This document shows positions 5,105 through 54,952 of a stretch of DNA of 64,000 bases, one piece after another. Position 1 is the stretch's first letter, and every line of letters starts with the position of its first letter. The DNA is taken from positions 235,718-299,717 of the forward strand of contig CP060237.1 in the NCBI GenBank assembly GCA_023898745.1. Direction: 5' to 3'. This DNA is from Alphaproteobacteria bacterium (GTDB taxonomy: Bacteria; Pseudomonadota; Alphaproteobacteria; G02398745; G023898745). Position numbers and translations under genes: made by a program. Under the pieces are notes generated by a model. The model saw only the letters and a list, made by a program, of their open reading frames with translations. It was not told the origin of the DNA and ran no database searches.

Positions 5105-5515
5105 ACAGAAAACATTATAGATCACCAAGTTGCTATGCTCCTCGTGATCTGATTCATCCCCACGAATTTTCTAAAATCCAAAAAAGTCTTAAACGCTTAA
5201 CCATGCAAGCTTTTCTTCTAGAGAAATTGATAGAAAAATATAAGGACAACGACCGTCATGGCGAGATTTTCGAAAGAAAATCTTGGCCATCCATCCGTCT
5301 TCGCAAATTTTGCCTTCAGCAAAATTTAGCTACGACGAGATTGGTCGAGTCGAAGCGTGTGAAGTGGATGTCTCGCCGAAGCTCTTTAGAGCGTAGGCGG
5401 ACACCTCCACGGATCACCACGTCGCTGCGCTCCTCGTGATGACGCCTGCGCATCGTGGGGATGAATCAGCTCGTGATGACGGAAATAGTAGATTCTCGTG
5501 ATGACAGAAGTGGTA
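5105..5515. repeat. Composite repeat region: ~125-bp element C, ~120-bp element A, and hairpin modules plus CTCGTGATGAC iterations
   Basis: Element C (5142..5265) recurs inverted at 25485..25615 and 43365..43495. Element A (5282..5410) recurs at 7015..7140, 21176..21310, 36262..36400 and 53995..54125. Confidence 0.8.
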
Positions 5516-5865: not shown

Positions 5866-5948
5866 ATAACGTCATCACGAGGCACGAAGTTGCTGTGGTG
5901 ATCCATGGATGGCCACGCCACCTTCGCTGAAGCTGCGGCCGGCTCGCC
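5866..5948. repeat. Modular hairpin repeat downstream of rpsT
   Basis: cgtcatcacgaggcacgaagttgctgtggtgatccatggatggccacgccaccttcgctgaagctgcggccggctcgccatgacg. Confidence 0.7.
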
Positions 5949-5978
5949 ATGACGACCTTCATTAGAAAGAGGTCCAAT

Positions 5979-6986
5979 ATGTCGCAAAATTCTCCCGAAA
6001 TCGCAATCATCGGCGCAGGCCCTGTTGGATTATTCTCTGTTTATGCCAATGGCATGATGGGGTATCGCTCTTACCTCTTTGATTTCCAAGAAGAACTCGG
6101 TGGCCAATGTGTCTTATATAAAGACAAGCCAATTTACGACATCCCCGCCTACCCCAAAATCACAGCAGAAAAATTGGTGCGCAAGCTGAAAAAACAGCAC
6201 AAACCCTTTCGTCCTGAATATCGCTTAAAAGAGCAGGTTCTGGATATTCAAAAAACTGATGATGGATTCACGTTAACAACGGACAAAGACACAGTCAACG
6301 TAAAAGCTGTTGTGATTGCTGGTGGTATCGGGGCATTTGGCCCGCGCAAACCGCCATTGTCCAACATTGAAGAATTTGAAGATAAATCTGTGTTTTATCA
6401 TGTGTCAGATAAATCTATGTTTAAAGATAAAAATATTGTCATCGCCGGCGGAGGTGATTCTGCCGTCGATTGGGCGTTAGAATTATCTAAAATTGCTGGG
6501 CAAGTATATTTAGTACACCGACGCACAAAGTTTCGTTGCCACGATTCTAGTGAGCAAGCGTTAGATAAATTGATTGAATCTGGGAAAGTGATCTTAAAAG
6601 CACCTGGGCAAGTGAAAGCATTACATGGAAATGATGGTGTTTTAACGCAAGTGGATGTGCAAAACATTCAAGATGATAGCATTGATGCGATAAAAGCAGA
6701 TTTCTTTTTGCCTTTTTTTGGATTATCTGCTGATTTGGGGCCTATTTTGAAATGGGATTTGGATTTGAAAAAAGATATGATCCCTGTTGATGTTACAACC
6801 ATGCGCTCACCTAAAGAGGGTATTTACGCCATTGGCGACATTGCACATTATGACAATAAGCAAAAATTAATTGCGATTGGATTTACAGAAGCATTTACTG
6901 CTGCTCACAATATTCGTGCTTATTTGAATCCTGGAAAAGTGTTTCACTTTGAGTATTCTACGACGAAGGGTGTGAAGGAGTTGTAG
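5979..6986 (+). CDS. Thioredoxin-reductase-like ferredoxin-NADP+ reductase (FNR type 2, YumC/FenR family)
   Basis: N-terminal FAD Rossmann fold IAIIGAGPVGLFSVYA and a second NAD(P) Rossmann fold IVIAGGGDSAVDWAL. The start is chosen at MSQNSPE, which is preceded by AAGAGG; the longer ORF start at 5949 is less likely. Confidence 0.85.
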   Translation: MSQNSPEIAIIGAGPVGLFSVYANGMMGYRSYLFDFQEELGGQCVLYKDKPIYDIPAYPKITAEKLVRKLKKQHKPFRPEYRLKEQVLDIQKTDDGFTLTTDKDTVNVKAVVIAGGIGAFGPRKPPLSNIEEFEDKSVFYHVSDKSMFKDKNIVIAGGGDSAVDWALELSKIAGQVYLVHRRTKFRCHDSSEQALDKLIESGKVILKAPGQVKALHGNDGVLTQVDVQNIQDDSIDAIKADFFLPFFGLSADLGPILKWDLDLKKDMIPVDVTTMRSPKEGIYAIGDIAHYDNKQKLIAIGFTEAFTAAHNIRAYLNPGKVFHFEYSTTKGVKEL

Positions 6987-6987
6987 A

Positions 6988-7400
6988 AGCTTCGTCATGG
7001 CGAGCGAAGCGTGGCCATCCATCCGTCTTCGCTAATTTTGCCAAAGGCAAAATTTAGCTACGACGAGATTGGTCGAGTCGGAGCGTGCGGAGTGGATGTC
7101 TCGCCAAAGCTCAAAGAGCGTAGGCGGGCTATCTCTCTATGGATCACCACGTCGCTCCGCTCCTCGTGATGACGGCTCGACATTCGTCATTGCGAGATTT
7201 TCGAAAGAAAATCGTGGCCATCCATGTTTTTCTTGATCACCACGCCTTGCTACGCAAGGCTCGTGATGACGGTAAATTTTGTGCTCCTCGTGATGACGGT
7301 AAATTTTGCGCTCCTCGTGATGACGATACGCTGTATGCCCTTCGTGATGACGATATCATCGAGCGGCCCACCACGTTCCAAATTCTCCTGTCAAAACCAA
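6988..7400. repeat. Composite repeat region: hairpin modules, element A copy (7015..7140), and four iterations of CTCGTGATGACG at ~27-bp period (7258..7355)
   Basis: Direct sequence repetition; it generates the spurious ORFs 7139..7408 and 7224..7478. Confidence 0.8.
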
Positions 7401-8540
7401 CTCTGTAATCGCCCATACCAATGCATCCATGCGATCTGCTGCACGGCCAGGTTTGTAGCTAGTGAGTTGTGTTTCTAACGCATTGAAATATTTACGGTGA
7501 ACCACCCTACCCTGCTCATATAACGCAATCACAGGTTCTGCACGTGTTATTTTGCTGCGCTTTGCTACAACTTCTTTGATGGGAAGTTCAGCACCATTGT
7601 GAATGTGAAACAATTCTGTAATCAGCGAACCACCTTGATTGACTTCTACAACCGCAGCATCTGCTTGGTATTTGTGATACGCGTAGCATGCTTTTTGCAC
7701 CCACTGGCATGGAGTGTAATTTCCGCTGAGATCTTCCAAAACATACACATTACCTGCATGAGATAATCCACATACAATGATGCCTGTTTCACATCCATCT
7801 TTGGTGACAGCTGGATCTAAACCAATAACAATACGTTTCAATTCAGGAACTTTTGGATTGTGCTGAAAGTATGATTGTTTAAATAATGAAAACTCATCTT
7901 CATGAAATAACTCACCATATAACTCCTGCGCACCCAAACGCGTTTTTGCATAATGCGTTTCCATATTTTGGATAAATCGCGCACTAAGATGTTTCTTGTT
8001 TTCAAACGTGGAGCCTGTTGTCACAACTGTGCCACGCAGGCGCTGCAAATCATGCAGAAGTTTTATGGGTTTTGGAGTTGTTGTGATGATGCATTTGGGT
8101 TGAGCTGACATGCGAAGTGTTAACTCAACTTGTGTCCATAATTCCTCTGGATATTTGAATTTTGCTAACTCATCAATCCACACTGTATCAAACTGCGGAC
8201 CTCTCAAGGTTTCATACTGATCGCCACCAAATAGCTGAATTCTAATATCAGATTTTTTCCACGTAATGAGACCTTCAGTTTTGCGATAATGATATGCTTT
8301 TGGCATATTCGAACTACTGAGCAAACCGCTCACACCTGCTACCATTACACGATGCGCTTCTTTGATAGTTTGACCAATTAGGGCAATATTTTTAGCCTTA
8401 CCCTGCTCCATCAATGACACAATACTTTCTGCACCTGTTTTGGTTTTACCAAAACCACGCCCGGCCATAATAAGCCAGACATAAAAATCATTGGGCAACC
8501 TTTGCTTATCGCGTGGCTGCCACCTTTGCGCAAATGTCAT
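7356..8540 (-). CDS. Phage/GTA-type terminase large subunit; orphan, with no other phage genes nearby
   Basis: Walker A motif WLIMAGRGFGKTKTGAE as in alphaproteobacterial GTA g2 terminases. The C-terminal half reads as a nuclease-like domain (GLDPAVTKDG...). 394 aa with no internal stops. Confidence 0.8.
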   Translation of the reverse strand: MTFAQRWQPRDKQRLPNDFYVWLIMAGRGFGKTKTGAESIVSLMEQGKAKNIALIGQTIKEAHRVMVAGVSGLLSSSNMPKAYHYRKTEGLITWKKSDIRIQLFGGDQYETLRGPQFDTVWIDELAKFKYPEELWTQVELTLRMSAQPKCIITTTPKPIKLLHDLQRLRGTVVTTGSTFENKKHLSARFIQNMETHYAKTRLGAQELYGELFHEDEFSLFKQSYFQHNPKVPELKRIVIGLDPAVTKDGCETGIIVCGLSHAGNVYVLEDLSGNYTPCQWVQKACYAYHKYQADAAVVEVNQGGSLITELFHIHNGAELPIKEVVAKRSKITRAEPVIALYEQGRVVHRKYFNALETQLTSYKPGRAADRMDALVWAITELVLTGEFGTWWAAR

Positions 8541-12409: not shown

Positions 12410-12476
12410 CGTCATGGCGAGCAAAAGCGTAGCCATCCATATGGATCACCACGTCGCTTCGCTCCTCGTGATGACG
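12410..12476. repeat. Modular hairpin repeat
   Basis: cgtcatggcgagcaaaagcgtagccatccatatggatcaccacgtcgcttcgctcctcgtgatgacg. Confidence 0.75.
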
Positions 12477-13643: not shown

Positions 13644-14837
13644 ATGTTTTTTCTTTTTGCCCAACATCTCGTATTTGACGATGAAGTCGAGTTATTTTGC
13701 AATGAAATTGTCACCACGATGTCCAAAGAAATGGGGATTAAGAACAAAAAAATCCCCGTTTATCTCATGGATACCGAAGATGTGAATGCAGCAGCGGCAG
13801 GGCATGGCATCTTGCTAATTCACACAGGGCTCATTGCAGAATGTAAAAATGCAGATGAATTTATAGGTGTGCTTGCGCACGAACTTGGGCATATTCAAAA
13901 AGCGCATACGTTTTATTTTTACCAGGCTGGCAAAGCTATGAACATTGCTTTGAGCGCTGGATTTGGTCTTGGTCTTATCTTGGCGCCTCTTACAGGCGGT
14001 CTTTCGCTGCTTGTCTTACCAATTATGGGTGCAGGAGGTGCACAAAGCTCTATTTTATCTTACATGCGTGTTCATGAGTTTGAGGCAGATCAAATTGCTG
14101 TGCAAACTCTCAAAAAAATGAATTGGCCCACAGATGGACTACGCACATTTTTGCAACGCCTCAAAGAACATGATTATTTAATTGAACTGACTGGACTAAC
14201 GACGCATCCCTTAAGTAGTGACCGCATCAGAAGAATTGAAGAAATGTCAAGAGGCGCAAAAGGCACCCTCAGTTCTGATATACATAAAAAATTTTCACGC
14301 ATTCGCGCAAAAGTTATGGGCTACATGCGGAAAAACGAAAAAACTGAAGACTTATATGAAAAAACACAGGCTTTGTATGTGCGCCGTGATTTTGCAAACG
14401 CCTTAAAAACAATCGATCAACTGCTAGAAAAAGATAAAAATGATGTTTTTTATAAAGAAATGAAGGCTGACATTTTGTTTTTAAAGGGTGATATTGAAAA
14501 TGCACACATTATATATAAAGAGATTGCAGAGCAAAATAAAGATCTTAAATATGTACCCATGAAAATTGTGTCCTGCGTCATATTATTAAAGTCTGACCTT
14601 GATGCAGGATTGGCAATCTTGGCGCATGCACGCGCTAAAGAACGCGCCTCGCCTTATTTATGGCATTTAACAGGACATATATATAAGTTAAAGGGCGATA
14701 TCAAGACAATGTGGTTTTGTCGTTGTCAGGCTGCGTTTTTAGCGAAAGATATGACATTTGTGAAAAAGCATATTGATAAGGCAGATACGGATGTTTTTGT
14801 TGACTTATATAAAGAGATGAAAGAGCTTATACGTTGA
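13644..14837 (+). CDS. M48-family zinc metallopeptidase with C-terminal TPR-like repeats (BepA/YfgC-like)
   Basis: HEXXH zinc motif HELGHIQKAH, and tandem helical repeats in the C-terminal half. The start is taken at MFFLFAQHLVF (ATG at 13644) rather than the upstream ORF Met. Confidence 0.75.
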   Translation: MFFLFAQHLVFDDEVELFCNEIVTTMSKEMGIKNKKIPVYLMDTEDVNAAAAGHGILLIHTGLIAECKNADEFIGVLAHELGHIQKAHTFYFYQAGKAMNIALSAGFGLGLILAPLTGGLSLLVLPIMGAGGAQSSILSYMRVHEFEADQIAVQTLKKMNWPTDGLRTFLQRLKEHDYLIELTGLTTHPLSSDRIRRIEEMSRGAKGTLSSDIHKKFSRIRAKVMGYMRKNEKTEDLYEKTQALYVRRDFANALKTIDQLLEKDKNDVFYKEMKADILFLKGDIENAHIIYKEIAEQNKDLKYVPMKIVSCVILLKSDLDAGLAILAHARAKERASPYLWHLTGHIYKLKGDIKTMWFCRCQAAFLAKDMTFVKKHIDKADTDVFVDLYKEMKELIR

Positions 14838-16080
14838 GCTCAGGTCTTACGCGGCCACTTCTATCTGTGAGCGCTTGAAAAATTTTTACTAATTCAGGTC
14901 TTTCTTTGGGATCAAAACTTAGCATACGTTTGCAGAGCATTTGAATTTGGAAAGAATAATCTGGAATATATCCCTTTATAAAATCAAAATCCTTTCGTTC
15001 TTGGATCGCTTTAGTGATATTTCTTTCCTGAAAAGGAAATTCTCCATACATCATCACAAATAAAATTACACCTAATGAATATACATCACACTTATAATTG
15101 TACTCAGCGTCATTACTCAGAACCTCTGGCGCAGCAGTCGCTTTTGTTCCTACCCTTCGAGTAAGTTTTTGCAAATCTTCAGTTTCCGAATTTGTTGAAA
15201 GTCCCCAGTCTGCTAAAACAACTCTCTCCAAAATACCACCTTCTGCGAATGTTAAAAATATATTTTCAGGCTTAATATCTCTATGGATAATTCCACGAAG
15301 ATGTGCAGTAGCTAATATACTAGTCAATTGGGCTATAGCTGTTCTCACCATATTTTCTGGCAATATTCCAGTTTCACGCTCAAATATAAACTCATACAGA
15401 TCCATAGAATATCTAGGCATTACAAGAAGTGCTTGGAGAGGATCTAGATGCACTCTTAATGTCTGAACATTATAAGGGTGATCCTGCAAAAAAAGCTGGT
15501 TTTTAATTTCATTCATAGTATCGCTCGTGCGTTTTAAAGCTTTCACCACATTTCCATCAATTAAATAAAGAGGATATTTACTTAGAACGTTTAATTTTTG
15601 CACGCCAGTTTGAATTAAGCGATGGGTTGTATCTTCCTCCATATCTACCGTATCAAACCCTGCATCTGTGCTAAATGTTAGATTTGGATTTGATGCAAGC
15701 ATGCGTTGACGAAACGCACCAAAACTATGTTTAAAAGCAAAAGAAAGTTTTACCCCTCCAATAAAACAAAATGCTATGAATGGATTGGGGTTATTTACAT
15801 GCTGAACGTCTATGCAGCCATCTTGGATATGAGTCAAAAAAGCTGTGGCTTTTTGATGATCAAGCTCTAGAGAGTCTAAAACTGTGAGCATTTGAGGCCT
15901 TTGAATTTCTTCTCTTTCTTGCAATGCAGCAAACTCTAAATCCAATCTTGCCTGATATTCTGTTGCAAACAATGTCGCTACTCTAGAATCTTCTTGCGTT
16001 ATAGGCACGTTAGGAATCCTTGACTGCAAAGGCACTTTTACTTGCGTATCAACAACTGTTGTTGCAACTATAAAAAACAT
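14827..16080 (-). CDS. Eukaryotic-like (Hanks-type) Ser/Thr protein kinase, paralog 1 (417 aa), N-terminus MFFIVATT
   Basis: Catalytic loop IIHRDIKPENIF, activation segment ADWGLS (a DFG variant), APE motif, and the subdomain IX/XI pattern DVYSLGVILF. Confidence 0.85.
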   Translation of the reverse strand: MFFIVATTVVDTQVKVPLQSRIPNVPITQEDSRVATLFATEYQARLDLEFAALQEREEIQRPQMLTVLDSLELDHQKATAFLTHIQDGCIDVQHVNNPNPFIAFCFIGGVKLSFAFKHSFGAFRQRMLASNPNLTFSTDAGFDTVDMEEDTTHRLIQTGVQKLNVLSKYPLYLIDGNVVKALKRTSDTMNEIKNQLFLQDHPYNVQTLRVHLDPLQALLVMPRYSMDLYEFIFERETGILPENMVRTAIAQLTSILATAHLRGIIHRDIKPENIFLTFAEGGILERVVLADWGLSTNSETEDLQKLTRRVGTKATAAPEVLSNDAEYNYKCDVYSLGVILFVMMYGEFPFQERNITKAIQERKDFDFIKGYIPDYSFQIQMLCKRMLSFDPKERPELVKIFQALTDRSGRVRPELNV

Positions 16081-16113
16081 TATTTTTTTTATTTTTAAAG
16101 TGTGTGGACTTTT

Positions 16114-16141
16114 TTTATAGGAAATGTTTTTTAAGTTTCAA
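16114..16141 (-). promoter_or_regulatory. Sigma70-like promoter and leader of kinase paralog 1 (TTGAAA-16-TATAAA on the minus strand)
   Basis: The reverse complement reads TTGAAACTTAAAAAACATTTCCTATAAA. The same promoter and roughly 60-nt leader are conserved upstream of all three kinase paralogs. Confidence 0.55.
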
Positions 16142-16149
16142 GGAAAACA

Positions 16150-16240
16150 TTGTCATCCTGAATGAAACAAAGGATCTTTTTGAGTTTATCTGAAGAAGGG
16201 CCTTTACTCGCTACGCTCATTCAAGAGGACAGCGCCTAAC
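16150..16240. repeat. GTCATCCTGAA...-type palindromic repeat (variant of the GTCATCCTGAGCG hairpin family)
   Basis: cattgtcatcctgaatga...cgctcattcaagaggacag forms an imperfect inverted repeat. It is related to the copies at 30955, 48158, 55026, 60702 and 62596. Confidence 0.5.
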
Positions 16241-16538
16241 TAAAGGAGTTGCCGCACCCACATGAAACAGTTGCGTTTGGATTCTTAATCACAAATCGCT
16301 CACCCATAAGATCTTGAATAAAATCTATGGTACTGCCATTAATCAAATCTAAAGAGGCTTGGTCGGTAATGACACTCGCATCATTCTTTATATATATAAT
16401 GTCTTCATCTCGTTTTTCATCCAACTCAAACGTATATTGAAAACCAGCACATCCGCCTCCAAGTACGCGAAGACGCAAAGCTTTTCCCTTGCTAAGTTTT
16501 TTAATTTGTGCAGCGGCACTTTCTGTGATGTGGAGCAT
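16236..16538 (-). CDS. erpA: Iron-sulfur cluster insertion protein ErpA/IscA (HesB family)
   Basis: C-terminal CGCGNSF and an internal conserved Cys (GGGCAGFQY); 100 aa. Confidence 0.88.
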   Translation of the reverse strand: MLHITESAAAQIKKLSKGKALRLRVLGGGCAGFQYTFELDEKRDEDIIYIKNDASVITDQASLDLINGSTIDFIQDLMGERFVIKNPNATVSCGCGNSFS

Positions 16539-16577
16539 AGACTTATATGTATGTCTTTTTTTTATAGTACCAGAAAA

Positions 16578-18260
16578 TTACAGAGTTTTTGCAAAATCAT
16601 CGAGTTGTTGAGCGGTTGGTCTATCCTGTGGATGAAACTGCAACATGCGCGCTGTAAACTCCGCAATTCTTCTTGAGGTTGAACCAACAGCCAAGTTCTG
16701 AATTTGTGTACTCATATTGAAAGTTCTTCTTGCTTCCGTTGCCAATCCCATCCAGTCAGATTGTTTCATATCAGTTTTAAACGGAAACCCCAAAAATTGC
16801 ATCGCATAGAACACAATTCCGAGTGAGTAAATATCAATTGCTGGACCATAAAGCTCTGCAGATAAAATTTCAGGCGGCAAATACGCTGGTGTTCCACATC
16901 GTCTTCTAAGATTGTGAAAACCTTCATTTTCGGCATTTGCAAATCCATAATCCGCTAAAAACACATCTTCACCCTTCATAAATATATTGTCTAGTTTTAT
17001 ATCCCTGTGAAGCACTTGGTTTGAATGCAAATAATTCAAAACAGATGCTAACTGTTTTATCCATCGCACCATTGTGGCCTCAGACAGCTGTTTTCGCTGC
17101 AACATATAATTATATAAATCAGAATCACATTTTGGCATAACAAGCAAACCTCTTAATCCATCAAAAATAAATTGACCTTTAAGGCTGTGAGAATGCTTCG
17201 CCATCTTTAAATGACTTATAATCTCTGGAATCCCCCCTGAAGTAACATAAAACAACTTCTCAATAGTATCCTTAGATGTATTTATATACAACGCTTCTTT
17301 TCCATCTCTTCCTTCTCTTAATACTTTATAATCACGGGATTTTAACAGACCATAAACAGAGGAATCAAGTTCAGAAAATAATCCTTCTATATCTTCTGTT
17401 GCATTTATATCAGTGCTAAATTTAGCACTAGGATTTACAAATGTTGATATAGAATAAGAAAAGTGAGAAAACAAATCGGCAGATGTAAATAAAAGCACAA
17501 CTTTACCATCAATAGAACACGAACATGCAAAAGCTGAATGATGATCTTGATGCTCAACTCTAAAAAATGACTGAGCCGTAATTTCTATTTTTTGCTGACA
17601 TGCCCCCTGCTTAAGCACAATAAAATCTTCTTCAAACTCTATTTTCACTGACTCTCCGTCTAATTGGCGCAAAGGCCCAGAGGTTTTCAGGAATATACCG
17701 CCTTTTCCTAAAAAACGCTTTTCACTGTTAAAACGATCATGAAGTGCTTTCTCCTCTTGATCACGCTGATTACTGATAGTTTTGTACCCTTGATGCAATC
17801 CAGCCCCTTCTCGTGGTTTAAGCATATCTAATAAATGACAAGCAGAAGTTATAAGATAACCTCTGTATAACGCCATATAGTTAAGCTCTTCCATATACTT
17901 AAGTTCTTGACGTGAGTGTTTCTCTAAAATTTCAACGCTCCCCAATACAAACTGATTGTAAAAAGTCCTTATATTCAACGTCTCTTCATCAACAATTTCT
18001 TGCATTCGATCTACATGATCCTTCTCAAGCTTCGAAATTTCAGTAGCATAATCAATCGCAGGAGCTCTAAGAGCTAATATACTTTCCGGATCAAAATGCA
18101 AATGTTGTTGGTTTTCGCCAACTAAGCTCAAGGCTTTAGATTCACACCTTTTATAATCAGGAGTATTTATTGCTTTCCCTCCCAACGCCGGCCTTCTTGG
18201 AGTTGTTGGAACGCTTGAAGCGTGAACAACTTCAGCTGCATACAAAAAATCAAAAAACAT
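16578..18260 (-). CDS. Eukaryotic-like Ser/Thr protein kinase, paralog 2 (560 aa). N-terminal MFFDFLYAAE leader, then an ~330-aa domain of unknown function, then the kinase domain.
   Basis: VLHRDIKLDNIF, ADYGFA, GTPAYLPPE, DIYSLGIVFY. The N-terminal domain is paralogous to that of kinase 3 (RFLGKGGIFLK... versus RFLGKTGVFER...). Confidence 0.85.
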   Translation of the reverse strand: MFFDFLYAAEVVHASSVPTTPRRPALGGKAINTPDYKRCESKALSLVGENQQHLHFDPESILALRAPAIDYATEISKLEKDHVDRMQEIVDEETLNIRTFYNQFVLGSVEILEKHSRQELKYMEELNYMALYRGYLITSACHLLDMLKPREGAGLHQGYKTISNQRDQEEKALHDRFNSEKRFLGKGGIFLKTSGPLRQLDGESVKIEFEEDFIVLKQGACQQKIEITAQSFFRVEHQDHHSAFACSCSIDGKVVLLFTSADLFSHFSYSISTFVNPSAKFSTDINATEDIEGLFSELDSSVYGLLKSRDYKVLREGRDGKEALYINTSKDTIEKLFYVTSGGIPEIISHLKMAKHSHSLKGQFIFDGLRGLLVMPKCDSDLYNYMLQRKQLSEATMVRWIKQLASVLNYLHSNQVLHRDIKLDNIFMKGEDVFLADYGFANAENEGFHNLRRRCGTPAYLPPEILSAELYGPAIDIYSLGIVFYAMQFLGFPFKTDMKQSDWMGLATEARRTFNMSTQIQNLAVGSTSRRIAEFTARMLQFHPQDRPTAQQLDDFAKTL

Positions 18261-18289
18261 TAGTTCATTTTTAGAGTGAGTAGGTTTCT

Positions 18290-18318
18290 TTTTTAGGAAA
18301 TGGTTTTTAAGGTTTCAA
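18290..18318 (-). promoter_or_regulatory. Sigma70-like promoter of kinase paralog 2 (TTGAAA-17-TAAAAA)
   Basis: The reverse complement reads TTGAAACCTTAAAAACCATTTCCTAAAAA; about 22 nt from the -10 to the ATG at 18260. Confidence 0.55.
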
Positions 18319-18400
18319 GAGTAAAAGGAAAAAAAATTTCCTTAAAATTAAGCGCGCTATTCTGTATACGAATTTTGAAGCGCCCCAAACAAATAGAATG

Positions 18401-30954: not shown

Positions 30955-31030
30955 GTCATCCTGAGCGCAGCGAAGGACCTTCCTGAGACAAACTTGGGAA
31001 GATCCTTCGTTCAACGCTCACTCAGGATGA
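30955..31030. repeat. GTCATCCTGAGCG...CGCTCACTCAGGATGAC palindromic hairpin repeat
   Basis: An inverted repeat of about 76 bp with a variable centre. The same family occurs at 48158..48252, 55026..55110, 60702..60760 and 62596..62640. Confidence 0.6.
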
Positions 31031-31046
31031 CGACAGAGAAAGAACC

Positions 31047-32226: not shown

Positions 32227-32697
32227 TTATATGTAGCACAGTGCAACAGCCAACGCATCTGAAGAATCTTGCGTAATCGGCTCTTGAGGCGAAAGTAGCA
32301 ATTCCACCATTTTCATTATTTGCTCTTTATCTGCATGCCCGCTACCTGTCACAGTTTTTTTGATATAATTCGGACGATATTCAAAAAATGGCATGTTGAA
32401 AACAGAGGCTAGCATGATTAAAACACCGCGTGCCATGCCTAGCTTGAGAGTGGATTGTGGGTTGTTGTTCATAAAAATTTCTTCAATGCATAAAATATGC
32501 GGTTTATGTTCCTCAATAACAGCACTCATTTGTTGATGCAAACTTGTAAGGCGTATTGGCAAAGGATCTTTGATTTTGGTTTTTAACACACCATGCGCAA
32601 TCCAACGGGATTGATTATTTTTCTTTTCAATAACCCCAAAGCCTGTTTTTACAAGACCTGGATCTATGCCGAGAACGCGGATGGTTTCTGTTGTCAT
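32227..32697 (-). CDS. ruvC: Holliday junction resolvase RuvC
   Basis: IRVLGIDPGLVKTGFGVIE catalytic N-terminus. The start is at MTTETIR (ATG at 32697); the longer ORF extension is repeat-derived. Confidence 0.85.
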   Translation of the reverse strand: MTTETIRVLGIDPGLVKTGFGVIEKKNNQSRWIAHGVLKTKIKDPLPIRLTSLHQQMSAVIEEHKPHILCIEEIFMNNNPQSTLKLGMARGVLIMLASVFNMPFFEYRPNYIKKTVTGSGHADKEQIMKMVELLLSPQEPITQDSSDALAVALCYI

Positions 32698-32807
32698 AAA
32701 TAAACCTTCGGTTGAACAAACGTCATCACGAGGAGCGCAGCGACGTGGTGATCCATTATGGATGGCCACGCTTCGCTCGCCATGACGGACCCCCTGCACA
32801 TAAAATC

Positions 32808-34304: not shown

Positions 34305-34500
34305 CGCAGCGCCACCACCGTTATGGCGAGCGAAGCGTGGCCATCCATCGATCACCACGGGACTTCGTCCCTCGTGATGACGAAATTTATACACTCCTCA
34401 TGATCTAAATGACGGTCGTTGTCCTTATGGATTTTAGAAAATTCGTGGGGATATGGGTCAGCTCGTGATGACGTCAATTTTCACTCTTCGTAATGACGTT
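34305..34500. repeat. Composite repeat region (hairpin modules, partial element C, CTCGTGATGAC iterations)
   Basis: ccgttatggcgagcgaagcgtggccatccatcgatcaccacgggacttcgtccctcgtgatgacg... Confidence 0.75.
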
Positions 34501-36204: not shown

Positions 36205-36425
36205 TTCATCACGAAATACGCGCAGCAACTGCCGTCATCACGAGGAGCGTAGCAACGTGGTGATCCATTAGAGAGTCCGCCTACGCTCTTTGGGCTTCGG
36301 CGAGACACACACTCCTACTCGATGATAAATCATCTCGTCGTAGCTAAATTTTGCCTTTGGCAAAATTAGCGAAGACGGATGGATGGCCGCAGCACCTTCG
36401 CGGGGCTTCGCCATGACGGCGGCGC
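36205..36425. repeat. Composite repeat region with an inverted element A copy
   Basis: Reverse-complement match to 5282..5410, with a compensatory change in the internal hairpin loop. Confidence 0.8.
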
Positions 36426-36441: not shown

Positions 36442-37950
36442 CTAGAATTGAATCTCCTGATACAGATAATCCACATCTTTCTCAATCTTGTGACGTGTGG
36501 ACAAGTGTTGCAAGAATGTGGACATAACCGTTTGATGCGCAGTTTGACCAAAGAATTGTGCAGCTTGTTTTGTTTCAAATGCACCGCCTTTGTATAGCTC
36601 ATCCTTAATAATACGCGCTAACGTTATACCTTTATCTGTATAAATGTAAACCATTTTTCCGTCTGCAGATGTTTGGAATACTCTAAACAACAACTCTGGG
36701 TTCAGACCTTCTGTCTTTTGCATTGCGCGGTTGATTGCAACATTACGTCTCACTTTAAATTTACGCTTTGCTACAAATTCATAAAATTCCTGAACCTTGC
36801 GTTCGAGTTGATACAAAGTTTCAAGATCTTGTTTAGCTTTTTCTTCTTTCTTTTTGACAGACCACATCTTCTTAGCGGCTTTTTGCAATTCTGCGCCTTT
36901 CATTTGTGTCTCTGGATCAATTTCATATACTTGCACAACAAACAGATCGCCTGTTGCTGGATCTTCAAACACATCCGATAAAACATTTAACTCTTGCTCA
37001 AACGCAAAATTCAAAACAGGTAAACTATAGGTAAATAACGTTTCTTTCGTCATTTTCTTAAAAGTTTCTTTTCTGTATCCTTGCGCTTCGATATCATCAA
37101 TATTGATTTCATCATTCTCAATGCGCGCTTTGAGATTTTTTGCAGCTTCAGCAATTTTTGCAAAACGAAGCTGCGCTTCAACCTCTGGCAAGGCTTTTGA
37201 AAAAATCAGTGGTTTTTTGTCAGATCCAATAAAGGCTTCTTTATGCTTCTTATAGTATGTTTGAAGTTCGTCTTGTGTAAAATTATATTTCTTGCGACTC
37301 AAGTTAATTAAATAGAATGAGCGCTTCTCTTGCGTCATAAACGCTTGTGGATTTTGTTCGATCACTGCTTGCAATTCATCTTCTGCTGGATTTTCAGAAA
37401 CATTTATACTGGAATAATCAATAGTTATCACATCAATCACACGATCTGAATTAAAACTTTGATGAATAAGCTTCTGATAGCCTTTTGGAAACTGATATGG
37501 CAATACCAATTGTTGCTCGACAATCTCACGCCTTACATCTTCAAGCATAACTTTTTTGCGCTCTGGATCCATCTGGTTGAAGTACAGGTTAAAGTTTTGA
37601 CCATATTGGTTAAGCTTTTTAATAAGCATATCTTCAGAAACAGTAAAACCTTGATGTCTTAACTCCAATATTCTCACCGTGCTTCCAATATATTCATCTA
37701 GCACTTGCTCTGGAAAGTGCGCCATTTTGAAATCGTCCATTGTGAGATGAGGTGATTTTTCCTTGATAGACTTAATTTGATGATCTAGCAATTGGAAAAA
37801 CTTTCTGTTGTTAATGGATTTGCCATCAATCTTTGCAAAATGCTTTTGTGTGGATGAGATGAGTCCATAGCGATCCTGCAAAACAAAACTTGCAATAATC
37901 AGAACTGTGAGAACAACAGATCCCCATTTAAGCCATTTACTTTGAACCAT
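36442..37950 (-). CDS. PpiD/SurA-like periplasmic chaperone (N-terminal TM anchor)
   Basis: N-terminal signal-anchor WLKWGSVVLTVLIIASFVL followed by a long chaperone-like domain with PpiD-like organisation; no intact PPIase signature checked. Confidence 0.55.
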   Translation of the reverse strand: MVQSKWLKWGSVVLTVLIIASFVLQDRYGLISSTQKHFAKIDGKSINNRKFFQLLDHQIKSIKEKSPHLTMDDFKMAHFPEQVLDEYIGSTVRILELRHQGFTVSEDMLIKKLNQYGQNFNLYFNQMDPERKKVMLEDVRREIVEQQLVLPYQFPKGYQKLIHQSFNSDRVIDVITIDYSSINVSENPAEDELQAVIEQNPQAFMTQEKRSFYLINLSRKKYNFTQDELQTYYKKHKEAFIGSDKKPLIFSKALPEVEAQLRFAKIAEAAKNLKARIENDEINIDDIEAQGYRKETFKKMTKETLFTYSLPVLNFAFEQELNVLSDVFEDPATGDLFVVQVYEIDPETQMKGAELQKAAKKMWSVKKKEEKAKQDLETLYQLERKVQEFYEFVAKRKFKVRRNVAINRAMQKTEGLNPELLFRVFQTSADGKMVYIYTDKGITLARIIKDELYKGGAFETKQAAQFFGQTAHQTVMSTFLQHLSTRHKIEKDVDYLYQEIQF

Positions 37951-43107: not shown

Positions 43108-43485
43108 TCGTCATGGCTAGCGAAGCATGGCCATCTATTATGGATCACCACGGGACTTCATCCCTCGTGATGACACCCCTGAGGTTGGCATGGCTAGCGA
43201 AGCATGGCCATCTATTGGATCGCCACGTCGCTCTGCGCTCCTCGTGATCTGATTCATTCCCACGAATTAAATATGCGCAGACGTCATCACGAGCCTTGCG
43301 TAGCAAGGCGTGGTAATCCAGAAAAACATGGATGGCCACGCCGCCTTCGCTAAAGCTAAGGCGCGCTCGCCATGACGGTAGCTGTCCTTATATTGTTCTA
43401 TCCATTTCTCTAGAAGAAAAGCTTGCATGGTTAAGCGTTTAAGACTTTTTGGATTTTAGAAAATTCGTGGGGATGGGTAAGCTTG
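43108..43485. repeat. Composite repeat region (two GTCATGGCTAGCG hairpins, hairpin modules, inverted element C)
   Basis: cgtcatggctagcgaagcatggccatcta occurs twice (43109, 43188); the element C copy is at 43365..43485. Confidence 0.8.
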
Positions 43486-46397: not shown

Positions 46398-46947
46398 AAT
46401 TTTTAATCATTAAGATTCTTTACCTTATTATATCATATTTAAGTAATATTAAAATATATATTTAAGTATTTTTGAAATATTTTTTCCGTCTTCGCTTTCG
46501 CCATCGCCCAAAGGGCTATGGCGAAATAGCTACGACGCGACTGCGTCGGAGCGTACGAAACGGAACCTCGCCGTAGCTTGAAGAGCGTAGGCGGGTTAAC
46601 CTTTTGTACACACTTTCTCCTTCCACAATGAAGCAGAAGCTCTTGATCAAGTGAGGTTTTTTGAAAAACTATATAAAATTCCTAGCGCTTAGTCTTGTGG
46701 AAGGCCTGGTGCATTATGATCTGAGAAAAACCTTGCTCACTGTAGTTTTAAGCTTTATATTAACGCATTTCTGCATGCATATGCATGAATATTATTATTT
46801 TTATATTCGCGAGAAGAATGAAAAAAAGATGTGCGCATTTTGGAAGCAGATGTCATCGTGACGTCATCACGAGGAGCGCAGCGACGTGGTGATCCATGGA
46901 GGTAGCCCGCCTACGCTCTTTGAGCTTCGGCGAGACTTCGAAGTCGC

Positions 46948-47610
46948 TCAATCCTTCGCAGCGTAATATACAAGCGGCGCAAAAGCTGCAATTGCCGCAA
47001 TCATCATACCAAAAATCCAAGTATAATCAGGGGGTTGCTGCACATAAATTGTTTGCACCTCAGGCTCTTTCATTTCAGGCAAAGTTGGGGGTTTAGGGCA
47101 CTCAAATCTCACAATATCAGGTACTTCAAGTGTTATTTTATGCCTCGGACTCAACTCAAGTGTTTTTTGATGGTCATAAATCAAATGTGCAAAATCTTTT
47201 TTCTTATCAACTCCAATGCCACCACTGTAACCATTGTAAAAGATATTCTTAAGATAAATCGGTGCGCCGCATTCATTTAATGCATTTGCACTAAAAACAT
47301 ACTGATTTAAAAATTGAGAAAAGTATGCGGCAACATCTTGAGCATACTGAGCAGAATGGCCAATTCTTTCACTAAAAAACAGACTAAAAGGCTTTTTATT
47401 ATCTGGATTCTCGATATTAAATGCTATCTGATTCTTAAGCATGCGACGCAAATCTGTGATTAAGCTTGCTGAGCTACTGTACAATAATTGTGTTGCGAAA
47501 GAATGTTCTGTACGCGGACCAAAGAAAATAGTTTTATCATCTCCAACCAATAAAAATAAACAAAATCCTCTGGGGTAATCCTCAAAAAAATTTCCGAATA
47601 AATTTGACAT
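46948..47610 (-). CDS. Hypothetical 220-aa protein with a C-terminal TM anchor
   Basis: Uninterrupted ORF ending in the hydrophobic IFGMMIAAIAAFAPLVYYAA; no motif recognised. Confidence 0.45.
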   Translation of the reverse strand: MSNLFGNFFEDYPRGFCLFLLVGDDKTIFFGPRTEHSFATQLLYSSSASLITDLRRMLKNQIAFNIENPDNKKPFSLFFSERIGHSAQYAQDVAAYFSQFLNQYVFSANALNECGAPIYLKNIFYNGYSGGIGVDKKKDFAHLIYDHQKTLELSPRHKITLEVPDIVRFECPKPPTLPEMKEPEVQTIYVQQPPDYTWIFGMMIAAIAAFAPLVYYAAKD

Positions 47611-47735
47611 TTCTCACCTCTTGACGGCGTGCGTCATGGCGAGACCTGGAAGTTCGTAGCCATCCATAATGGATCACCACGTCGCTACACTCCTCGTGAT
47701 GACGATGCGTTATGCAACAAATATCTATTATCTCA

Positions 47736-48197
47736 TTATATCATCAAAAGTGTAATATTAAAACGCTTTAATTCTTCTTTCAAAACACGCATCAAAATCT
47801 CATCGTCTTTTTTAATATCCGCTTTGGAAAGTTCTAATTTATGATGTTTAATTTTAAGATTCATGGGTGTATTCCTAAAAATAAATCCTAAAAGCACAAA
47901 AATTTTATTATATTCATCACCCTCCAGATTAATTTTGATATGCCTGGATAAATCTTGCGCCTCATGGGCTGGGATAGATGTACTGACAAAAATATGACGG
48001 AAACACTTAAACCGCCATGTCATATCATCAACAGCGTCTTTAATATCAGGGTGCGTTTCTGATAAAAAATTTAAAACCGTCAGGGGTGAGGCAAGGTCGT
48101 GTAAGATTTTTGAGATAACGGCAGTGTTAGAAGGTGCCACAGACTCGTCATCCTGAGCGAGCGTAGCGCGAGAGGAATCTTCCTGAGACATACTCAA
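47736..48197 (-). CDS. Possible ChpT-like histidine phosphotransferase / HisKA_2-type phosphoacceptor fragment. Its N-terminal 17 codons are supplied by a palindromic repeat.
   Basis: ILHDLASPLTVLNFL resembles the H-box of ChpT/HisKA_2 domains (RLCHDfiSPl). The start codon and the first ~17 codons (MSMSQEDSSRATLAQDD) lie inside the GTCATCCTGAGCG hairpin repeat at 48158..48252. Confidence 0.3.
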   Translation of the reverse strand: MSMSQEDSSRATLAQDDESVAPSNTAVISKILHDLASPLTVLNFLSETHPDIKDAVDDMTWRFKCFRHIFVSTSIPAHEAQDLSRHIKINLEGDEYNKIFVLLGFIFRNTPMNLKIKHHKLELSKADIKKDDEILMRVLKEELKRFNITLLMI

Positions 48198-48252
48198 GAA
48201 GCTCCTTCGCTACGCTCAGGATGACAGAGCGAGGACTCACGATGACGGAGCG
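48158..48252. repeat. GTCATCCTGAGCG...CGCTCAGGATGAC palindromic hairpin repeat overlapping the 5' end of the 47736..48197 ORF
   Basis: cgtcatcctgagcgagcgtagcgcgagaggaatcttcctgagacatactcaagaagctccttcgctacgctcaggatgac. Confidence 0.6.
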
Positions 48253-53584: not shown

Positions 53585-53702
53585 CGCGGGACATCATGGC
53601 CATCCACAAGGGATCACCACGATCTGCTTCGCAGATCTCGTGATGACGACAGATATAACACTCCTCGTGATGACGAAAAATATAGCGCTCCTCGTAATGA
53701 CA
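53585..53702. repeat. Modular hairpin repeat plus three CTCGTGATGACG-type iterations
   Basis: ggatcaccacgatctgcttcgcagatctcgtgatgacgacagatataacactcctcgtgatgacgaaaaatatagcgctcctcgtaatgac. Confidence 0.75.
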
Positions 53703-53942: not shown

Positions 53943-54152
53943 ACATCATCACGAGGAGTGTTATATCTGTCGTCATCACGAGGAGCGCAGCGACGCGGTG
54001 ATCTATGGAGGTGCCCGCCTTCGCTCTTTGAGCTTCGGCGAGGCATCCATTTCACACGCTCCGACTCAACCAATCTCGTCGTAGCTAAATTTTGCTGAAA
54101 GCAAAATTTGCGAAGACGGATGGATAGCCACGCTACGCTCACCATGACGACG
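53943..54152. repeat. Composite repeat region with an inverted element A copy
   Basis: Reverse-complement match to element A, including the gcaaattttgc-tgaaa-gcaaaatttgc hairpin. Confidence 0.8.
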
Positions 54153-54157: not shown

Positions 54158-54952
54158 CTATGCAGTCAACACTGACGCACTCTTCGCAGCTTCCAAGTCT
54201 ACCAAATCCGCAAAATACCCTATAAAATCCCCAACATCCTCAGCTGTGGAGCGAATCTTCCAAGGTGCAAGTGGTAAAATTTGCCCTTGGCTCATTTGCG
54301 TTAAAGGCTCAAAAGTTTCACGCCAATTGCTATCCACAATCAATGTGCGATTTTTCAACATAGATTTTGTAAACTTACCTAAGTTAGAAAAATGATTCAC
54401 TAAACCAGTCTTCAAATCAATATATAACTCTTTAAGATTATCATTCGTATTCAACAGTCTTGTATCAATCGTTCTAGATTTATTTGCATCTTTTAATACA
54501 TAATTTTCTGCCAAAATATTAGGAATATCCAAGCTAATGCGTCCATTTTTCACTGTAAATACATCTTGATCAAAGGCTTCTAGCTGAACAACGTTATCAA
54601 GATTGATACGCTTTACTTCGCCAGTTTGCTCAGGAATATTATGCTCTCTTGCAATATGATCCCAATTTAAAACAATCTTGCCTTTTTCTTTTTTGAATTC
54701 GTCATATCCAAAGTCTTCATACGTGATCAACTTATCTGCATTGAAACTTCTAATATTGCCTTGATTGTAAATTAACTTATCGTAATTCGGAACGGTTGCT
54801 TGTAGTGATTCTAAGAATTTTTTATGAAAATTCGCCATTTGAATTCTATAAAACATGAGGCTGACAGCAAATGAAACCGCTAGGCTCACGCTTAGAATTG
54901 TCATGATATTTTGAGGCAGAGTACTTCTTACGGGCAGTGCTGCAGTTGTCAT
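54158..54952 (-). CDS. Hypothetical 264-aa protein with an N-terminal TM anchor
   Basis: IMTILSVSLAVSFAVSLMFY signal-anchor; no motif recognised. Confidence 0.45.
   Translation of the reverse strand: MTTAALPVRSTLPQNIMTILSVSLAVSFAVSLMFYRIQMANFHKKFLESLQATVPNYDKLIYNQGNIRSFNADKLITYEDFGYDEFKKEKGKIVLNWDHIAREHNIPEQTGEVKRINLDNVVQLEAFDQDVFTVKNGRISLDIPNILAENYVLKDANKSRTIDTRLLNTNDNLKELYIDLKTGLVNHFSNLGKFTKSMLKNRTLIVDSNWRETFEPLTQMSQGQILPLAPWKIRSTAEDVGDFIGYFADLVDLEAAKSASVLTA

What the first reader, a model, noticed from the sequence alone, without database searches (positions are those of the whole stretch)
5282..5410. ~120-bp composite element present in at least 7 copies, with a structure-preserving internal hairpin; candidate sRNA or MITE
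The element reads CCATCCATCCGTCTTCGCAAATTTTGCC-loop-GCAAAATTTAGCTACGACGAGATTGGTCGAGTCGAAGCGTGTGAAGTGGATGTCTCGCCGAAGCTCTTTAGAGCGTAGGCGG. Full or partial copies in both orientations occur at 5282, 7015, 21176, 36262 (inverted), 53995 (inverted), 46486 (divergent) and 27160 (divergent).

The internal 11-12-bp stem (gcaaattttgc / gcaaaatttgc) is kept in every copy. The loop and closing pairs differ between copies (cc-ttcag-c, cc-aaa-gg, c-ttt-gg, c-tgaaa-g). The element sits between the hairpin modules described above. A defined length, conserved ends and preserved secondary structure fit either a non-autonomous mobile element or a repeated small RNA gene.
Basis: seen in the sequence. Interest (0 to 1): 0.55.

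Follow-up and report, generated by a model that had tools for sequence, protein, structure and literature searches.

The report
Hairpin-doublet repeat abutting tRNA CCA ends
This is a new family of about 105-base, non-coding, strongly folding repeats in an uncultured alphaproteobacterium; it looks like the selfish REP/REPIN- or MITE-type repeats of other bacteria rather than a small-RNA gene, and it lands again and again just after a hairpin that ends in CCA, including three tRNA genes.

Summary
The window holds five full copies, two variant copies and two 3'-half copies of a 102-114-nt element (TCCGTCTTCGC ... GCGWAGGCGGR). All are intergenic and none is expected by chance. One detail is wrong: the AT-rich stem is replaced by a different GC-rich hairpin in the copies at 27166 and 46485.

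The element is an inverted doublet of one about 40-nt hairpin unit around a roughly 30-nt spacer, which is REPIN-like. It has 7-9/11 imperfect terminal inverted repeats and no target-site duplication.

In five copies it sits exactly at the centre of a doublet of another, far more abundant hairpin family. That family has about 50 units in 64 kb.

In eight of 11 copies the 5' end abuts CCA. This includes the 3' CCA of tRNA-Leu here and of tRNA-Thr and tRNA-Met in the only other genome that carries the element, a distant MAG.

The sense strand folds better than the antisense strand in 11 of 11 copies. The element usually follows a co-oriented gene. It has no promoter or terminator of its own and no Rfam match.

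Best reading, at about 50% confidence: a non-autonomous, site-specific structured repeat carried in 3' trailers. It is a new member of a known kind and of moderate interest.

The parts
5294..5401 (+). Core element, reference copy (108 nt). Sits in the divergent intergenic region upstream of rpsT.
   Evidence: (127.9 bits)
5294..5304 (+). X arm TCCGTCTTCGC, the left terminal inverted repeat. It forms the 5' strand of helix P1 in the sense-strand fold, or of the outer stem of the local 'A' hairpin.
   Evidence: nearly invariant in all 11 copies
5305..5327 (+). Its loop is variable, and the whole hairpin is swapped for a GC-rich one in two copies.
5329..5356 (+). Y arm GCTACGACGAG plus the 5' part of spacer B. 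Together they form helix P3 (GCU-A-CGAC / GUCG-A-AGC), with a different spacer sequence in the other MAG.
5359..5368 (+). 3' part of spacer B (GTGAAGTGGA), which pairs with X to close the three-way junction (P1).
   Evidence: G-U/G-C and U-A/U-G one-sided changes
5370..5402 (+). P4, the 'C' hairpin: GTC-T-CGCC-GAA-GCTC-loop-GAGC-GTA-GGCG-GAC. It is the same unit type as the A hairpin, inverted. Its 3' arm is the right terminal inverted repeat.
   Evidence: compensatory changes at two pairs
5254..5293 (+). Flanking H2-type hairpin unit CGTCATGGCGAG-[ATTTTCGAAAGAAAAT]-CTTGGCCATCCA. The element starts right after its terminal CCA.
5411..5444 (-). Flanking inverted H1-type hairpin unit (CGTCATCACGAGGAGCGCAGCGACGTGGTGATCC on the minus strand).
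21187..21294 (+). Full copy. Its composite starts 11 nt after the prs stop codon and it lies between H2 (21158-21185) and H1' (21304-21341).
7022..7128 (+). Full copy. H2 (6993-7020) starts 7 nt after the stop of the oxidoreductase gene 5949-6986, and H1' lies at 7141-7174.
54014..54120 (-). Full copy, inverted. Its composite begins 9 nt after the stop of gene 54158-54952(-).
36276..36379 (-). Full copy, inverted, with a divergent spacer B. It lies downstream of the SurA/PpiD-like gene 36442-37950(-).
27166..27279 (-). Variant copy with a swapped inner hairpin. It is fused directly to the 3' CCA of tRNA-Leu (27280-27364, -) and ends 29 nt before the tig start codon.
46485..46595 (+). Variant copy with a swapped inner hairpin. 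It has no CCA and no flanking H units and is antisense to both neighbouring genes. A TTGACA-18-CATAAT promoter-like site lies about 85 nt upstream.
25677..25730 (-). Half copy: the C hairpin joined to the 5' half of an H unit (CGTCATTGCGAGCGTAGCGGATG). It lies 15 nt after the tig stop codon.
46897..46939 (-). Half copy: the C hairpin plus H1' only, directly after the stop of gene 46948-47610(-).

Best explanation
The element is a non-autonomous, structured, dispersed repeat of the REP/REPIN-MITE kind. It is two copies of one roughly 40-nt imperfect-hairpin unit (CGYC-NWN-GC...GC-NWN-GRCG) in inverted orientation around a roughly 30-nt spacer.

It has spread by insertion at one preferred kind of site, immediately 3' of a stem that ends in CCA(T). 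That site is either the acceptor end of a tRNA gene or the ATCCA end of the genome's abundant 'H2' hairpin, at the centre of H2/H1 hairpin doublets. Short-homology recombination with neighbouring hairpin modules then reshuffled it, giving the half copies, hairpin swaps and nested units.

The enzyme is inferred, not seen. The absence of target duplication, the subterminal hairpins, the fixed 5' target and the strand-specific wobble pairs fit a single-strand (HUH/RAYT- or IS200/IS605-like) mechanism better than a DDE transposase.

Because it lands just behind stop codons and tRNA ends in the sense orientation, it is carried in the 3' trailer or inter-cistronic RNA of the upstream gene. There its sense-strand fold (a three-way junction plus a hairpin) most likely acts as a passive 3' protecting or processing structure. 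It is not a terminator and not an independent sRNA gene.

**Shown:** the copies, the anatomy, the junctions, the fold bias and presence of the full element in one other genome (a third carries only the related H2/U hairpin module).

**Inferred:** mobility, the enzyme class and the RNA role.
For: - **Copies and specificity:**
- **Inverted-doublet anatomy:** the A arms TCCGTCTTCGC...GCTACGACGAG and the reverse complement of the C arms TCCGCCTACGC...GCTTCGGCGAG share 9/11 and 9/11 bases, and every unit fits one template.
- **5' junction:** 8 of 11 copies are preceded by CCA, including tRNA-Leu and tRNA-Thr and tRNA-Met in MAG JABDBN01.
- **Independent insertions:** five copies sit at the same position of H2/H1' doublets whose inner stems all differ. 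At least 12 such doublets are 'empty', e.g. GCCATCCATGGATCACC at 883-958.
- **Independent family:** the element occurs without the CGTCAT-type H units in the other MAG.
- **Signs of insertion and recombination:** a 5'-truncated MAG copy supplies the stop codon of dsbD. Half copies and hybrid junctions lie at the shared motifs CTCGC/GCGWAG.
- **Independent assembly:** the sequence is confirmed in a separate contig.
- **Fold:** z-scores run from -2.5 to -5.1. The sense strand is more stable than the antisense in 11/11 copies. 91% of cells are paired against 36-42% in slid controls, and compensatory changes occur in P2/P4.
- **Position relative to genes:** the composite starts within about 25 nt of the stop codon or CCA of a co-oriented upstream gene in 7 of 9 window copies, and likewise in 3 MAG copies whose context is known. 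Orientation is 4 plus to 5 minus along a window of one GC-skew sign.
Against: - No transposase of any kind lies in the window or the MAG loci, and the rest of the 953-kb contig could not be read.
- No orthologous empty site in a close relative was available, so mobility is inferred only from paralogous sites.
- Copies are 74-96% identical, so there has been no recent burst.
- The mixed orientation relative to the replication strand is not what IS200/IS605-type lagging-strand insertion predicts.
- Three of 11 copies lack the CCA flank.
- The H2/element/H1' composite could in part have spread as a unit, with later turnover of the H inner stems.
- Similarity of about 80% between two very distant MAGs, as high as within one genome, could instead reflect purifying selection on a function.
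Confidence: 0.5

Rival explanations
1. This is a cis-acting or processed functional RNA, not a currently mobile element. The three-way-junction-plus-hairpin RNA is selected in the trailers of tRNAs and mRNAs. It would be either a 3'-end stabiliser or processing signal, or a roughly 105-nt trailer-derived small RNA released when the tRNA (or the CCA-ended H2 hairpin) is matured. The copies would then be kept by selection.
For: - The sense strand folds better in 11/11 copies.
- P1 keeps pairing through G-U/G-C and U-A/U-G changes that would be mismatches on the other strand.
- Arms and internal loops are nearly invariant across two distant genomes while inner stems and loops vary.
- The element is fused directly to three different tRNA 3' ends.
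- It is co-oriented with upstream genes.
- An H2 unit with a nested U hairpin lies in the same place after tig in a relative with only 63% Tig identity.
Against: - P1 and P3 show only one-sided changes and no compensatory double changes.
- The same helices can form in single-stranded DNA.
- Two copies (5294 and 46485) have no co-oriented upstream gene.
- Truncated, hybrid and hairpin-swapped copies look like decay and recombination rather than a conserved RNA.
- Rfam has no relative.
- No expression data are available.
Confidence: 0.25
2. This is a classical MITE: an internally deleted insertion sequence with terminal inverted repeats, moved in trans by a DDE transposase encoded elsewhere in the genome.
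For: - Imperfect 11-bp terminal inverted repeats, 7-9 of 11.
- Size of 102-114 nt, non-coding, intergenic, multi-copy and a stable fold.
- These match general MITE features as reviewed in PMC10969869.
Against: - No target-site duplication of any fixed length flanks the copies.
- The 'TIRs' are explained by the two inverted hairpin units.
- The element is GC-rich (49-61%) in a roughly 38% GC genome, whereas MITEs are typically AT-rich.
- The fixed CCA flank on one side only is not DDE-like.
- No IS lies in the window.
Confidence: 0.1
3. This is a DNA-level structural or binding module of a BIME-like mosaic. It would act as a site for gyrase, IHF or a nucleoid protein, or as a replication or recombination signal, maintained by the host rather than spread selfishly.
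For: - The organisation with alternating hairpin orientation mirrors enterobacterial BIMEs.
- The neighbouring H units carry GCGNAGC-type loops, 31/50 on one strand against 1/50 on the other. That motif is known as an extraordinarily stable DNA mini-hairpin (PMC13037366, PMC3201870).
- The elements fill nearly every intergenic region, including promoter regions.
Against: - No binding protein or motif has been identified.
- The element itself lacks the GNA-loop signature.
- The hypothesis does not explain the exact CCA junction at tRNA genes.
Confidence: 0.1
4. This is an assembly artefact or a set of recent segmental duplications.
For: Repeat-rich MAGs are prone to mis-assembly. The copies at 5294 and 21187 are 96% identical over 146 nt.
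Against: - Flanks outside the hairpin units are unrelated, and the inner stems of the flanking units differ.
- An independent Logan contig matches at 100% across the tRNA-Leu/element/tig junction.
- Related copies exist in a different MAG.
Confidence: 0.02

Closest known systems
REPINs (inverted REP doublets) and their RAYT transposases, e.g. Pseudomonas fluorescens SBW25 (PMC3116915, PMC3337134)
   Same: Both have two imperfect-palindrome units of one type in inverted orientation around a less conserved spacer that itself forms a hairpin. Both are about 100 nt, extragenic, present in many copies that are rarely identical, and lack a target duplication. A G(T/A)AG tetranucleotide lies next to the inner hairpins.
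   Different: There is no sequence similarity. The G(T/A)AG sits inside the unit's arms rather than 5' of the whole palindrome. No RAYT gene has been seen, though only 64 kb of 953 kb is readable. The element is nested at the centre of doublets of a second hairpin family and abuts tRNA CCA ends. Neither feature is described in the two REPIN papers consulted here (PMC3116915, PMC3337134); the wider REPIN literature was not searched for them.
BIMEs of Escherichia coli (mosaics of REP/PU units with linker motifs; REPtron, PMC3479197)
   Same: Both are mosaics of hairpin units in alternating orientation with defined 'filler' motifs between them. Both lie mostly behind genes and are probably co-transcribed. 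Both show many combinatorial variants.
   Different: The unit sequences differ, and here the filler is itself an inverted hairpin doublet. The density is far higher: about 50 H units plus 9 elements in 64 kb of a genome under 1 Mb.
Pneumococcal BOX elements (boxA-boxB(n)-boxC) and other bacterial MITE-like repeats such as Correia, ERIC and RPE (PMC3049150, PMC3184786, PMC10969869)
   Same: Modular, non-coding, roughly 100-150 nt, with strongly folding transcripts. They are intergenic, have inverted-repeat ends and can alter neighbouring gene ends.
   Different: Correia elements have TA duplications and 26-bp TIRs, and BOX modules are unrelated in sequence. Rickettsia RPEs insert in frame inside genes, whereas this element stays outside genes apart from providing one stop codon in the MAG.
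IS200/IS605-derived non-autonomous elements (PATEs) and single-strand 'peel and paste' transposition
   Same: Subterminal imperfect hairpins at both ends, no target duplication, and insertion directly 3' of a short fixed sequence. The structure is favoured on one strand.
   Different: Orientation is not biased with the replication strand (4 plus, 5 minus). There is no room for a guide tetranucleotide between the CCA(T) flank and the left hairpin. No TnpA has been seen.

Membership tests
REP/REPIN-RAYT system | Short imperfect palindromic units, extragenic, in many copies | tested here: met
   The unit template CG[CT]C-NNN-GC..GC-NNN-G[GA]CG was found in every copy, and all copies are intergenic.
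REP/REPIN-RAYT system | [quoted passage not shown] | tested here: met
   The A arms and the reverse complement of the C arms match at 9/11 and 9/11 bases. X can pair with X', and does so in the minimum-free-energy fold of 2/11 copies.
REP/REPIN-RAYT system | Conserved GTAG-type tetranucleotide 5' of the hairpin foot (PMC3479197) | tested here: inconclusive
   GTAG/GAAG flanks the inner hairpins (CGTC-GTAG-C... on the antisense of A; CGCC-GAAG-C...C-GTAG-GCG in C). However, it lies inside the outer stem.
REP/REPIN-RAYT system | A RAYT (Y1 HUH transposase) gene in the same genome, flanked by the repeats | not testable with these tools
   Pfam found no Y1_Tnp or other transposase in about 56 window ORFs or 10 MAG ORFs.
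MITE (DDE-type) | Terminal inverted repeats | tested here: met
   TCCGTCTTCGC against the reverse complement of GCGWAGGCGGR: 7-9 of 11 in all 11 copies.
MITE (DDE-type) | Target-site duplication flanking the element | tested here: not met
   The flanks share no direct repeat of fixed length. The CCA/TCCA seen on the right in some copies belongs to the H1' unit or lies at variable distance.
MITE (DDE-type) | AT-rich, integrating in AT-rich DNA (PMC10969869) | tested here: not met
   Copies are 49-61% GC in a roughly 38% GC window. Insertion sites are GC-rich hairpins or tRNA ends.
MITE (DDE-type) | A parent IS with matching ends | not testable with these tools
   None in the window. The rest of the genome is unavailable.
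Stand-alone small-RNA gene | Own promoter and terminator | tested here: not met
   Promoter and terminator scans around copies are no better than shuffles. No T-run follows the last hairpin. Only the copy at 46485 has a good promoter-like site about 85 nt upstream.
Stand-alone small-RNA gene | Match to a described RNA family | tested here: not met
   Rfam 15 gave only tRNAs at gathering threshold. At E<=10 it gave only chance-level hits.
Stand-alone small-RNA gene | Conserved structure supported by covariation | tested here: inconclusive
   91% of cells are paired against 36-42% in slid controls. Double changes occur in P2 and P4, but P1 and P3 show one-sided changes only, and the sequences are related.
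Intrinsic terminator | GC-rich hairpin followed by a U-tract that ends transcription | tested here: not met
   There is no T-run. The tig start codon lies 29 nt after the copy at 27166, so tig must be read through it.
IS200/IS605-type non-autonomous element | Insertion 3' of a fixed short target, with no TSD and subterminal hairpins | tested here: inconclusive
   8/11 copies follow CCA(T), there is no TSD, and hairpins lie at both ends. But 3 copies lack the target.
IS200/IS605-type non-autonomous element | Orientation bias with the replication strand | tested here: not met
   There are 4 plus and 5 minus copies in a window whose cumulative GC skew falls almost monotonically.

The most novel reading that the evidence does not exclude
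The element may be an RNA-level device that exploits tRNA-maturation machinery. A stem ending in CCA (a real tRNA acceptor arm or the H2 hairpin mimic) would direct a processing cut that releases a roughly 105-nt three-way-junction RNA. That RNA could be a trailer-derived regulatory RNA, or the RNA intermediate, possibly even a new self-cleaving motif, of a repeat that copies itself onto CCA 3' ends.
Probability: 0.07. Interest if true: 0.75.

Novelty: new member of a known kind. Interest (0 to 1): 0.36.

Why it matters
The repeat family has no relatives in Rfam and none in the plasmid or phage collections. Across 185,579 species genomes and the JGI metagenomes, only one other MAG carries it.

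Three features make it useful for studying how small structured repeats choose their targets and build mosaics in reduced genomes:
- It is nested exactly at the centre of another hairpin doublet.
- It is fused to the CCA end of three different tRNA genes in two distant genomes.
- Its inner hairpins are swapped for other hairpins.

Practically, these repeats break short-read assemblies. They also create spurious ORFs and false gene starts and stops in such MAGs.

Tried and rejected
- **Exact look-ups.** The RpsT look-up found nothing. The Tig look-up gave only a 1.7-kb Logan contig, so the rest of the 953-kb source contig could not be read.
- **Genome and metagenome scans.** Both returned only MAG JABDBN01, using up both caps.
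- **Viral-contig scan with the loose A-hairpin pattern.** It gave 7 hits, none confirmed by the covariance model, so they are treated as chance.
- **BLAST of the composite.** No match against plasmids or phages.
- **Literature search.** The hairpin 12-mers were found only in unrelated plant microsatellite papers.
- **Synteny between window and MAG loci.** tblastn found no shared genes, so genome divergence could not be measured directly.
- **Target-site duplication.** A 3-5-bp 'CCA/TCCAT' repeat was considered and rejected. On the right it belongs to the H1' unit or sits at variable distance, and it is absent in most MAG copies.
- **Long-range X:X' pairing as the main fold.** Only 2/11 minimum-free-energy folds use it, and the T/A variation in X' is not compensated.
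- **Mis-registered structure string.** One search used a string off by one for the local A hairpin. Its helices 1-3 should be ignored; the correct counts for that hairpin are, and all of its pairs are invariant.
- **Nearest-neighbour folding of H units.** It could not see their G-A-mismatch stems, so loop statistics were taken from a direct palindrome search instead.
- **Known small ribozymes.** Hammerhead and others were considered for the three-way junction and rejected, because there is no conserved core and no Rfam hit.

Full report
**Source**

The window is about 38% GC. It carries ordinary bacterial housekeeping genes: rpsT, rpsI/rplM, hisS, prs, tig, dnaB, ruvB/ruvC, tpiA and tyrS. Its trigger factor is identical to a protein of an NCBI MAG named 'Alphaproteobacteria bacterium' (locus tags H6850_, contig 953,497 bp). 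Only the window itself could be read. A 1.7-kb Logan contig from a different sequencing run is 100% identical across tRNA-Leu, the element and tig, so the sequence is not an assembly artefact.

**The observation**

- Five full copies have cores at 5294-5401+, 21187-21294+, 7022-7128+, 54014-54120- and 36276-36379-.
- Two variant copies lie at 27166-27279- and 46485-46595+.
- Two copies that keep only the 3' module lie at 25677-25723- and 46897-46939-.

A 42-nt core pattern with up to three mismatches matches four times against none in 100 shuffles. A covariance model built from ten copies and run without filters finds the same set and nothing more. All copies lie between genes.

The statement that the AT-rich stem is present in every copy is not. 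The copies at 27166 and 46485 have a GC-rich hairpin in its place, CGCC(G/A)TC-GCCC-AAA-GGGC-TAT-GGCG.

**Anatomy**

The core is 102-114 nt. It reads X (TCCGTCTTCGC), an inner hairpin, Y (GCTACGACGAG), a roughly 30-nt spacer B, Y' (CTCGCCGAAGC), a short inner hairpin, and X' (GCGWAGGCGGR).
- X matches the reverse complement of X' at 7-9 of 11 positions.
- Y matches the reverse complement of Y' at 9 of 11 positions.

So the element is two copies of one hairpin unit in inverted orientation. The unit has a 4-bp outer stem, three nucleotides on each side that can form G-A, A-T, A-G, a GC/GC step and a variable inner stem-loop. The same unit type also occurs nested inside other hairpins (25456-25503, 43330-43377, 5907-5954) and as the swapped inner hairpin of the two variant copies.

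**Context**

The window holds about 50 units of a second hairpin family that I call H, in about 11 kb of intergenic DNA. Their form is CGTCAT-xxx-CGAG-[variable stem-loop]-CGTGG-xxx'-ATCCAT, and they typically occur as H2/H1 doublets in inverted orientation.

In the five full copies the element lies exactly between the two halves of such a doublet, as ...GCCATCCA|TCCGTC...GGCGGR-(4-10 nt)-ATGGATCACC.... At least 12 doublets have nothing there, for example GCCATCCATGGATCACC at 883-958. The inner stems of the flanking H units differ between the five sites. This argues for separate arrivals at the same kind of site rather than copying of one large block.

**Relatives**

One scan of 185,579 species genomes and one of the JGI metagenomes found the element only in MAG JABDBN01, which is about 42% GC. 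Its copies are about 80% identical to the window's copies, while nothing else in those loci aligns. About 21 kb of that MAG holds four full copies and one partial copy, and no CGTCAT-type H units by the same pattern. The element is therefore a family of its own.

A contig from a third organism, whose trigger factor is 63% identical, has an H2 unit with a nested unit of the element's type right after the tig stop codon. That unit is about 90% identical to one in the same intergenic region here. H-type hairpins also occur in two unrelated contigs of 54% and 67% GC.

**The CCA junction**

This is the most striking new fact.
- In the window, the copy at 27166-27279 begins at the base after the CCA of tRNA-Leu.
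- In the MAG, two copies begin at the base after the CCA of tRNA-Thr and tRNA-Met.
- With the five copies that follow the ATCCA end of an H2 hairpin, eight of 11 copies share the junction CCA|TCC(G/T)TCTTCGC.

Chance cannot place three copies on tRNA ends. The right-hand flanks share no direct repeat with the left, so there is no target-site duplication. One MAG copy is truncated at its 5' end and supplies the last codons and the stop of dsbD.

**Folding**

Each copy folds well beyond shuffled controls, with z from -2.5 to -5.1. In nine of 11 copies the sense-strand optimum is the same:
- X pairs with the 3' part of the spacer (P1).
- The inner hairpin forms P2.
- Y pairs with the 5' part of the spacer (P3).
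- The C hairpin stands alone (P4).

On the alignment, 91% of cells pair, against 36-42% when partners are slid by one to three columns. P2 and P4 contain pairs changed on both sides. P1 and P3 change on one side only, G-U to G-C and U-A to U-G.

The sense strand is more stable than the antisense in all 11 copies, by about 4-5 kcal/mol on average. The copies are related, so this is a trend and not a probability. It cannot separate RNA from single-stranded DNA.

**Position relative to genes**

In seven of nine window copies, the composite starts within about 25 nt of the stop codon or CCA of a gene on the same strand. The same holds for the three MAG copies whose context is known. The copies at 5294 (divergent region before rpsT) and 46485 are the exceptions.

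Orientation is four plus to five minus along a window with one GC-skew sign, so it follows genes rather than the replication strand.

The element is not a terminator. No T-run follows it, scans find nothing above shuffles, and tig starts 29 nt after the tRNA-Leu copy, so tig must be read through it. No Rfam family matches.

**Interpretation**

The anatomy matches what Bertels and Rainey call a REPIN: two inverted REP units and a spacer (PMC3337134). It sits inside a BIME-like mosaic. The single-strand HUH enzymes that process REPs recognise imperfect hairpins with an adjacent GTAG (PMC3479197), and G(T/A)AG flanks the inner hairpins here.

I could not test the defining partner, a RAYT gene. 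None lies in the window or the MAG loci, and the rest of the genome is out of reach. A DDE-type MITE fits less well, because there is no duplication and the element is GC-rich. A stand-alone sRNA gene is not supported. A role as part of upstream transcripts is plausible and is my main rival reading.

I put about 0.5 on a site-specific, non-autonomous structured repeat carried passively in 3' trailers. I put 0.25 on a selected RNA element, and about 0.1 each on a classical MITE and on a DNA-level host module.

**Verdict**

It is a new family of a known kind of bacterial repeat. It has one unexplained and testable oddity, the CCA junction, which keeps it moderately interesting.

Noticed in passing
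whole window, e.g. 883-958, 12410-12476, 32721-32787, 47632-47704: There are about 50 'H' hairpin units (CGTCAT-xxx-CGAG-[variable perfectly paired inner stem]-CGTGG-xxx'-ATCCAT) in about 11 kb of intergenic DNA, mostly as inverted doublets. 31 of 50 have GNA/GNNA apical loops (GCGAAGC, GCGCAGC, GCGTAGC) on the CGTCAT strand, against 1 of 50 with TNC loops. This is the known ultra-stable DNA mini-hairpin motif and hints at a single-stranded DNA role.
   Followed up: partly
L014 6678-6785 and 8649-8683; L015 33-114; L006 1130-1176: Near-identical H-type hairpins (CGTCATCGCGAGG..CGTGGCGATCCAT, CGTCATTGCGAGC..GCGGCAATCC) occur in unrelated contigs of 54% and 67% GC and in a relative with 63% Tig identity. 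The hairpin family therefore spans very different genomes. No paper in the library quotes these sequences.
   Followed up: partly
16152-16230, 30955-31031, 48147-48225, 55027-55107; half sites at 21138, 60709, 62618: A third repeat family: palindromic elements of about 77-81 nt with the ends GTCATCCTGA...TCAGGATGAC.
   Followed up: no
21137-21147: The stop codon of prs (..ELKILSSS*) lies inside a CGTCATCCTGA half site. Repeat DNA appears to have remodelled the 3' end of the gene.
   Followed up: partly
5137-5265 (+), 25492-25620 (-), 43366-43457 (-), partial 34404-34450: A separate AT-rich repeat of about 129 nt, with copies 92-98% identical. It is always flanked by H units, and one copy lies directly left of the reference element. 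It could itself be a mobile element or an RNA gene.
   Followed up: no
7262-7355 and 53640-53701: Tandem arrays of half H units (CTCCTCGTGATGACG plus a 12-nt spacer, period 27 nt), with three to four copies in each array.
   Followed up: no
14827-20104 (-): Three adjacent genes encode eukaryote-like Ser/Thr protein kinase domains (Pkinase, E of 1e-30 to 1e-37). Each is preceded by a conserved upstream repeat of about 61 nt (16097, 18273, 20120). They look like an expanded effector family of a host-associated bacterium.
   Followed up: no
32227-32799 (-) and 20257, 33005: Hairpin repeats create false N-terminal ORF extensions. The RuvC Pfam match starts at residue 42 of the ORF, and H units overlap the called start codons of prs and the CNNM/CorC gene.
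   Followed up: partly
L003 7063-7079: In MAG JABDBN01 the last five codons and the TAA stop of dsbD lie inside a 5'-truncated copy of the element.
   Followed up: partly
46371-46400 (+): A near-consensus promoter-like site (TTGACA, 18 nt, TG-CATAAT; 11 of 12) points at the orphan copy 46485-46595. This is the only copy that could be an independent transcription unit.
   Followed up: no
25138-25398 (+) and 7356-8540 (-): An 86-aa RRM-domain RNA-binding protein sits in a repeat-dense region. A lone T4-type large terminase gene, with no other phage genes recognised nearby, may belong to a gene transfer agent.
   Followed up: no
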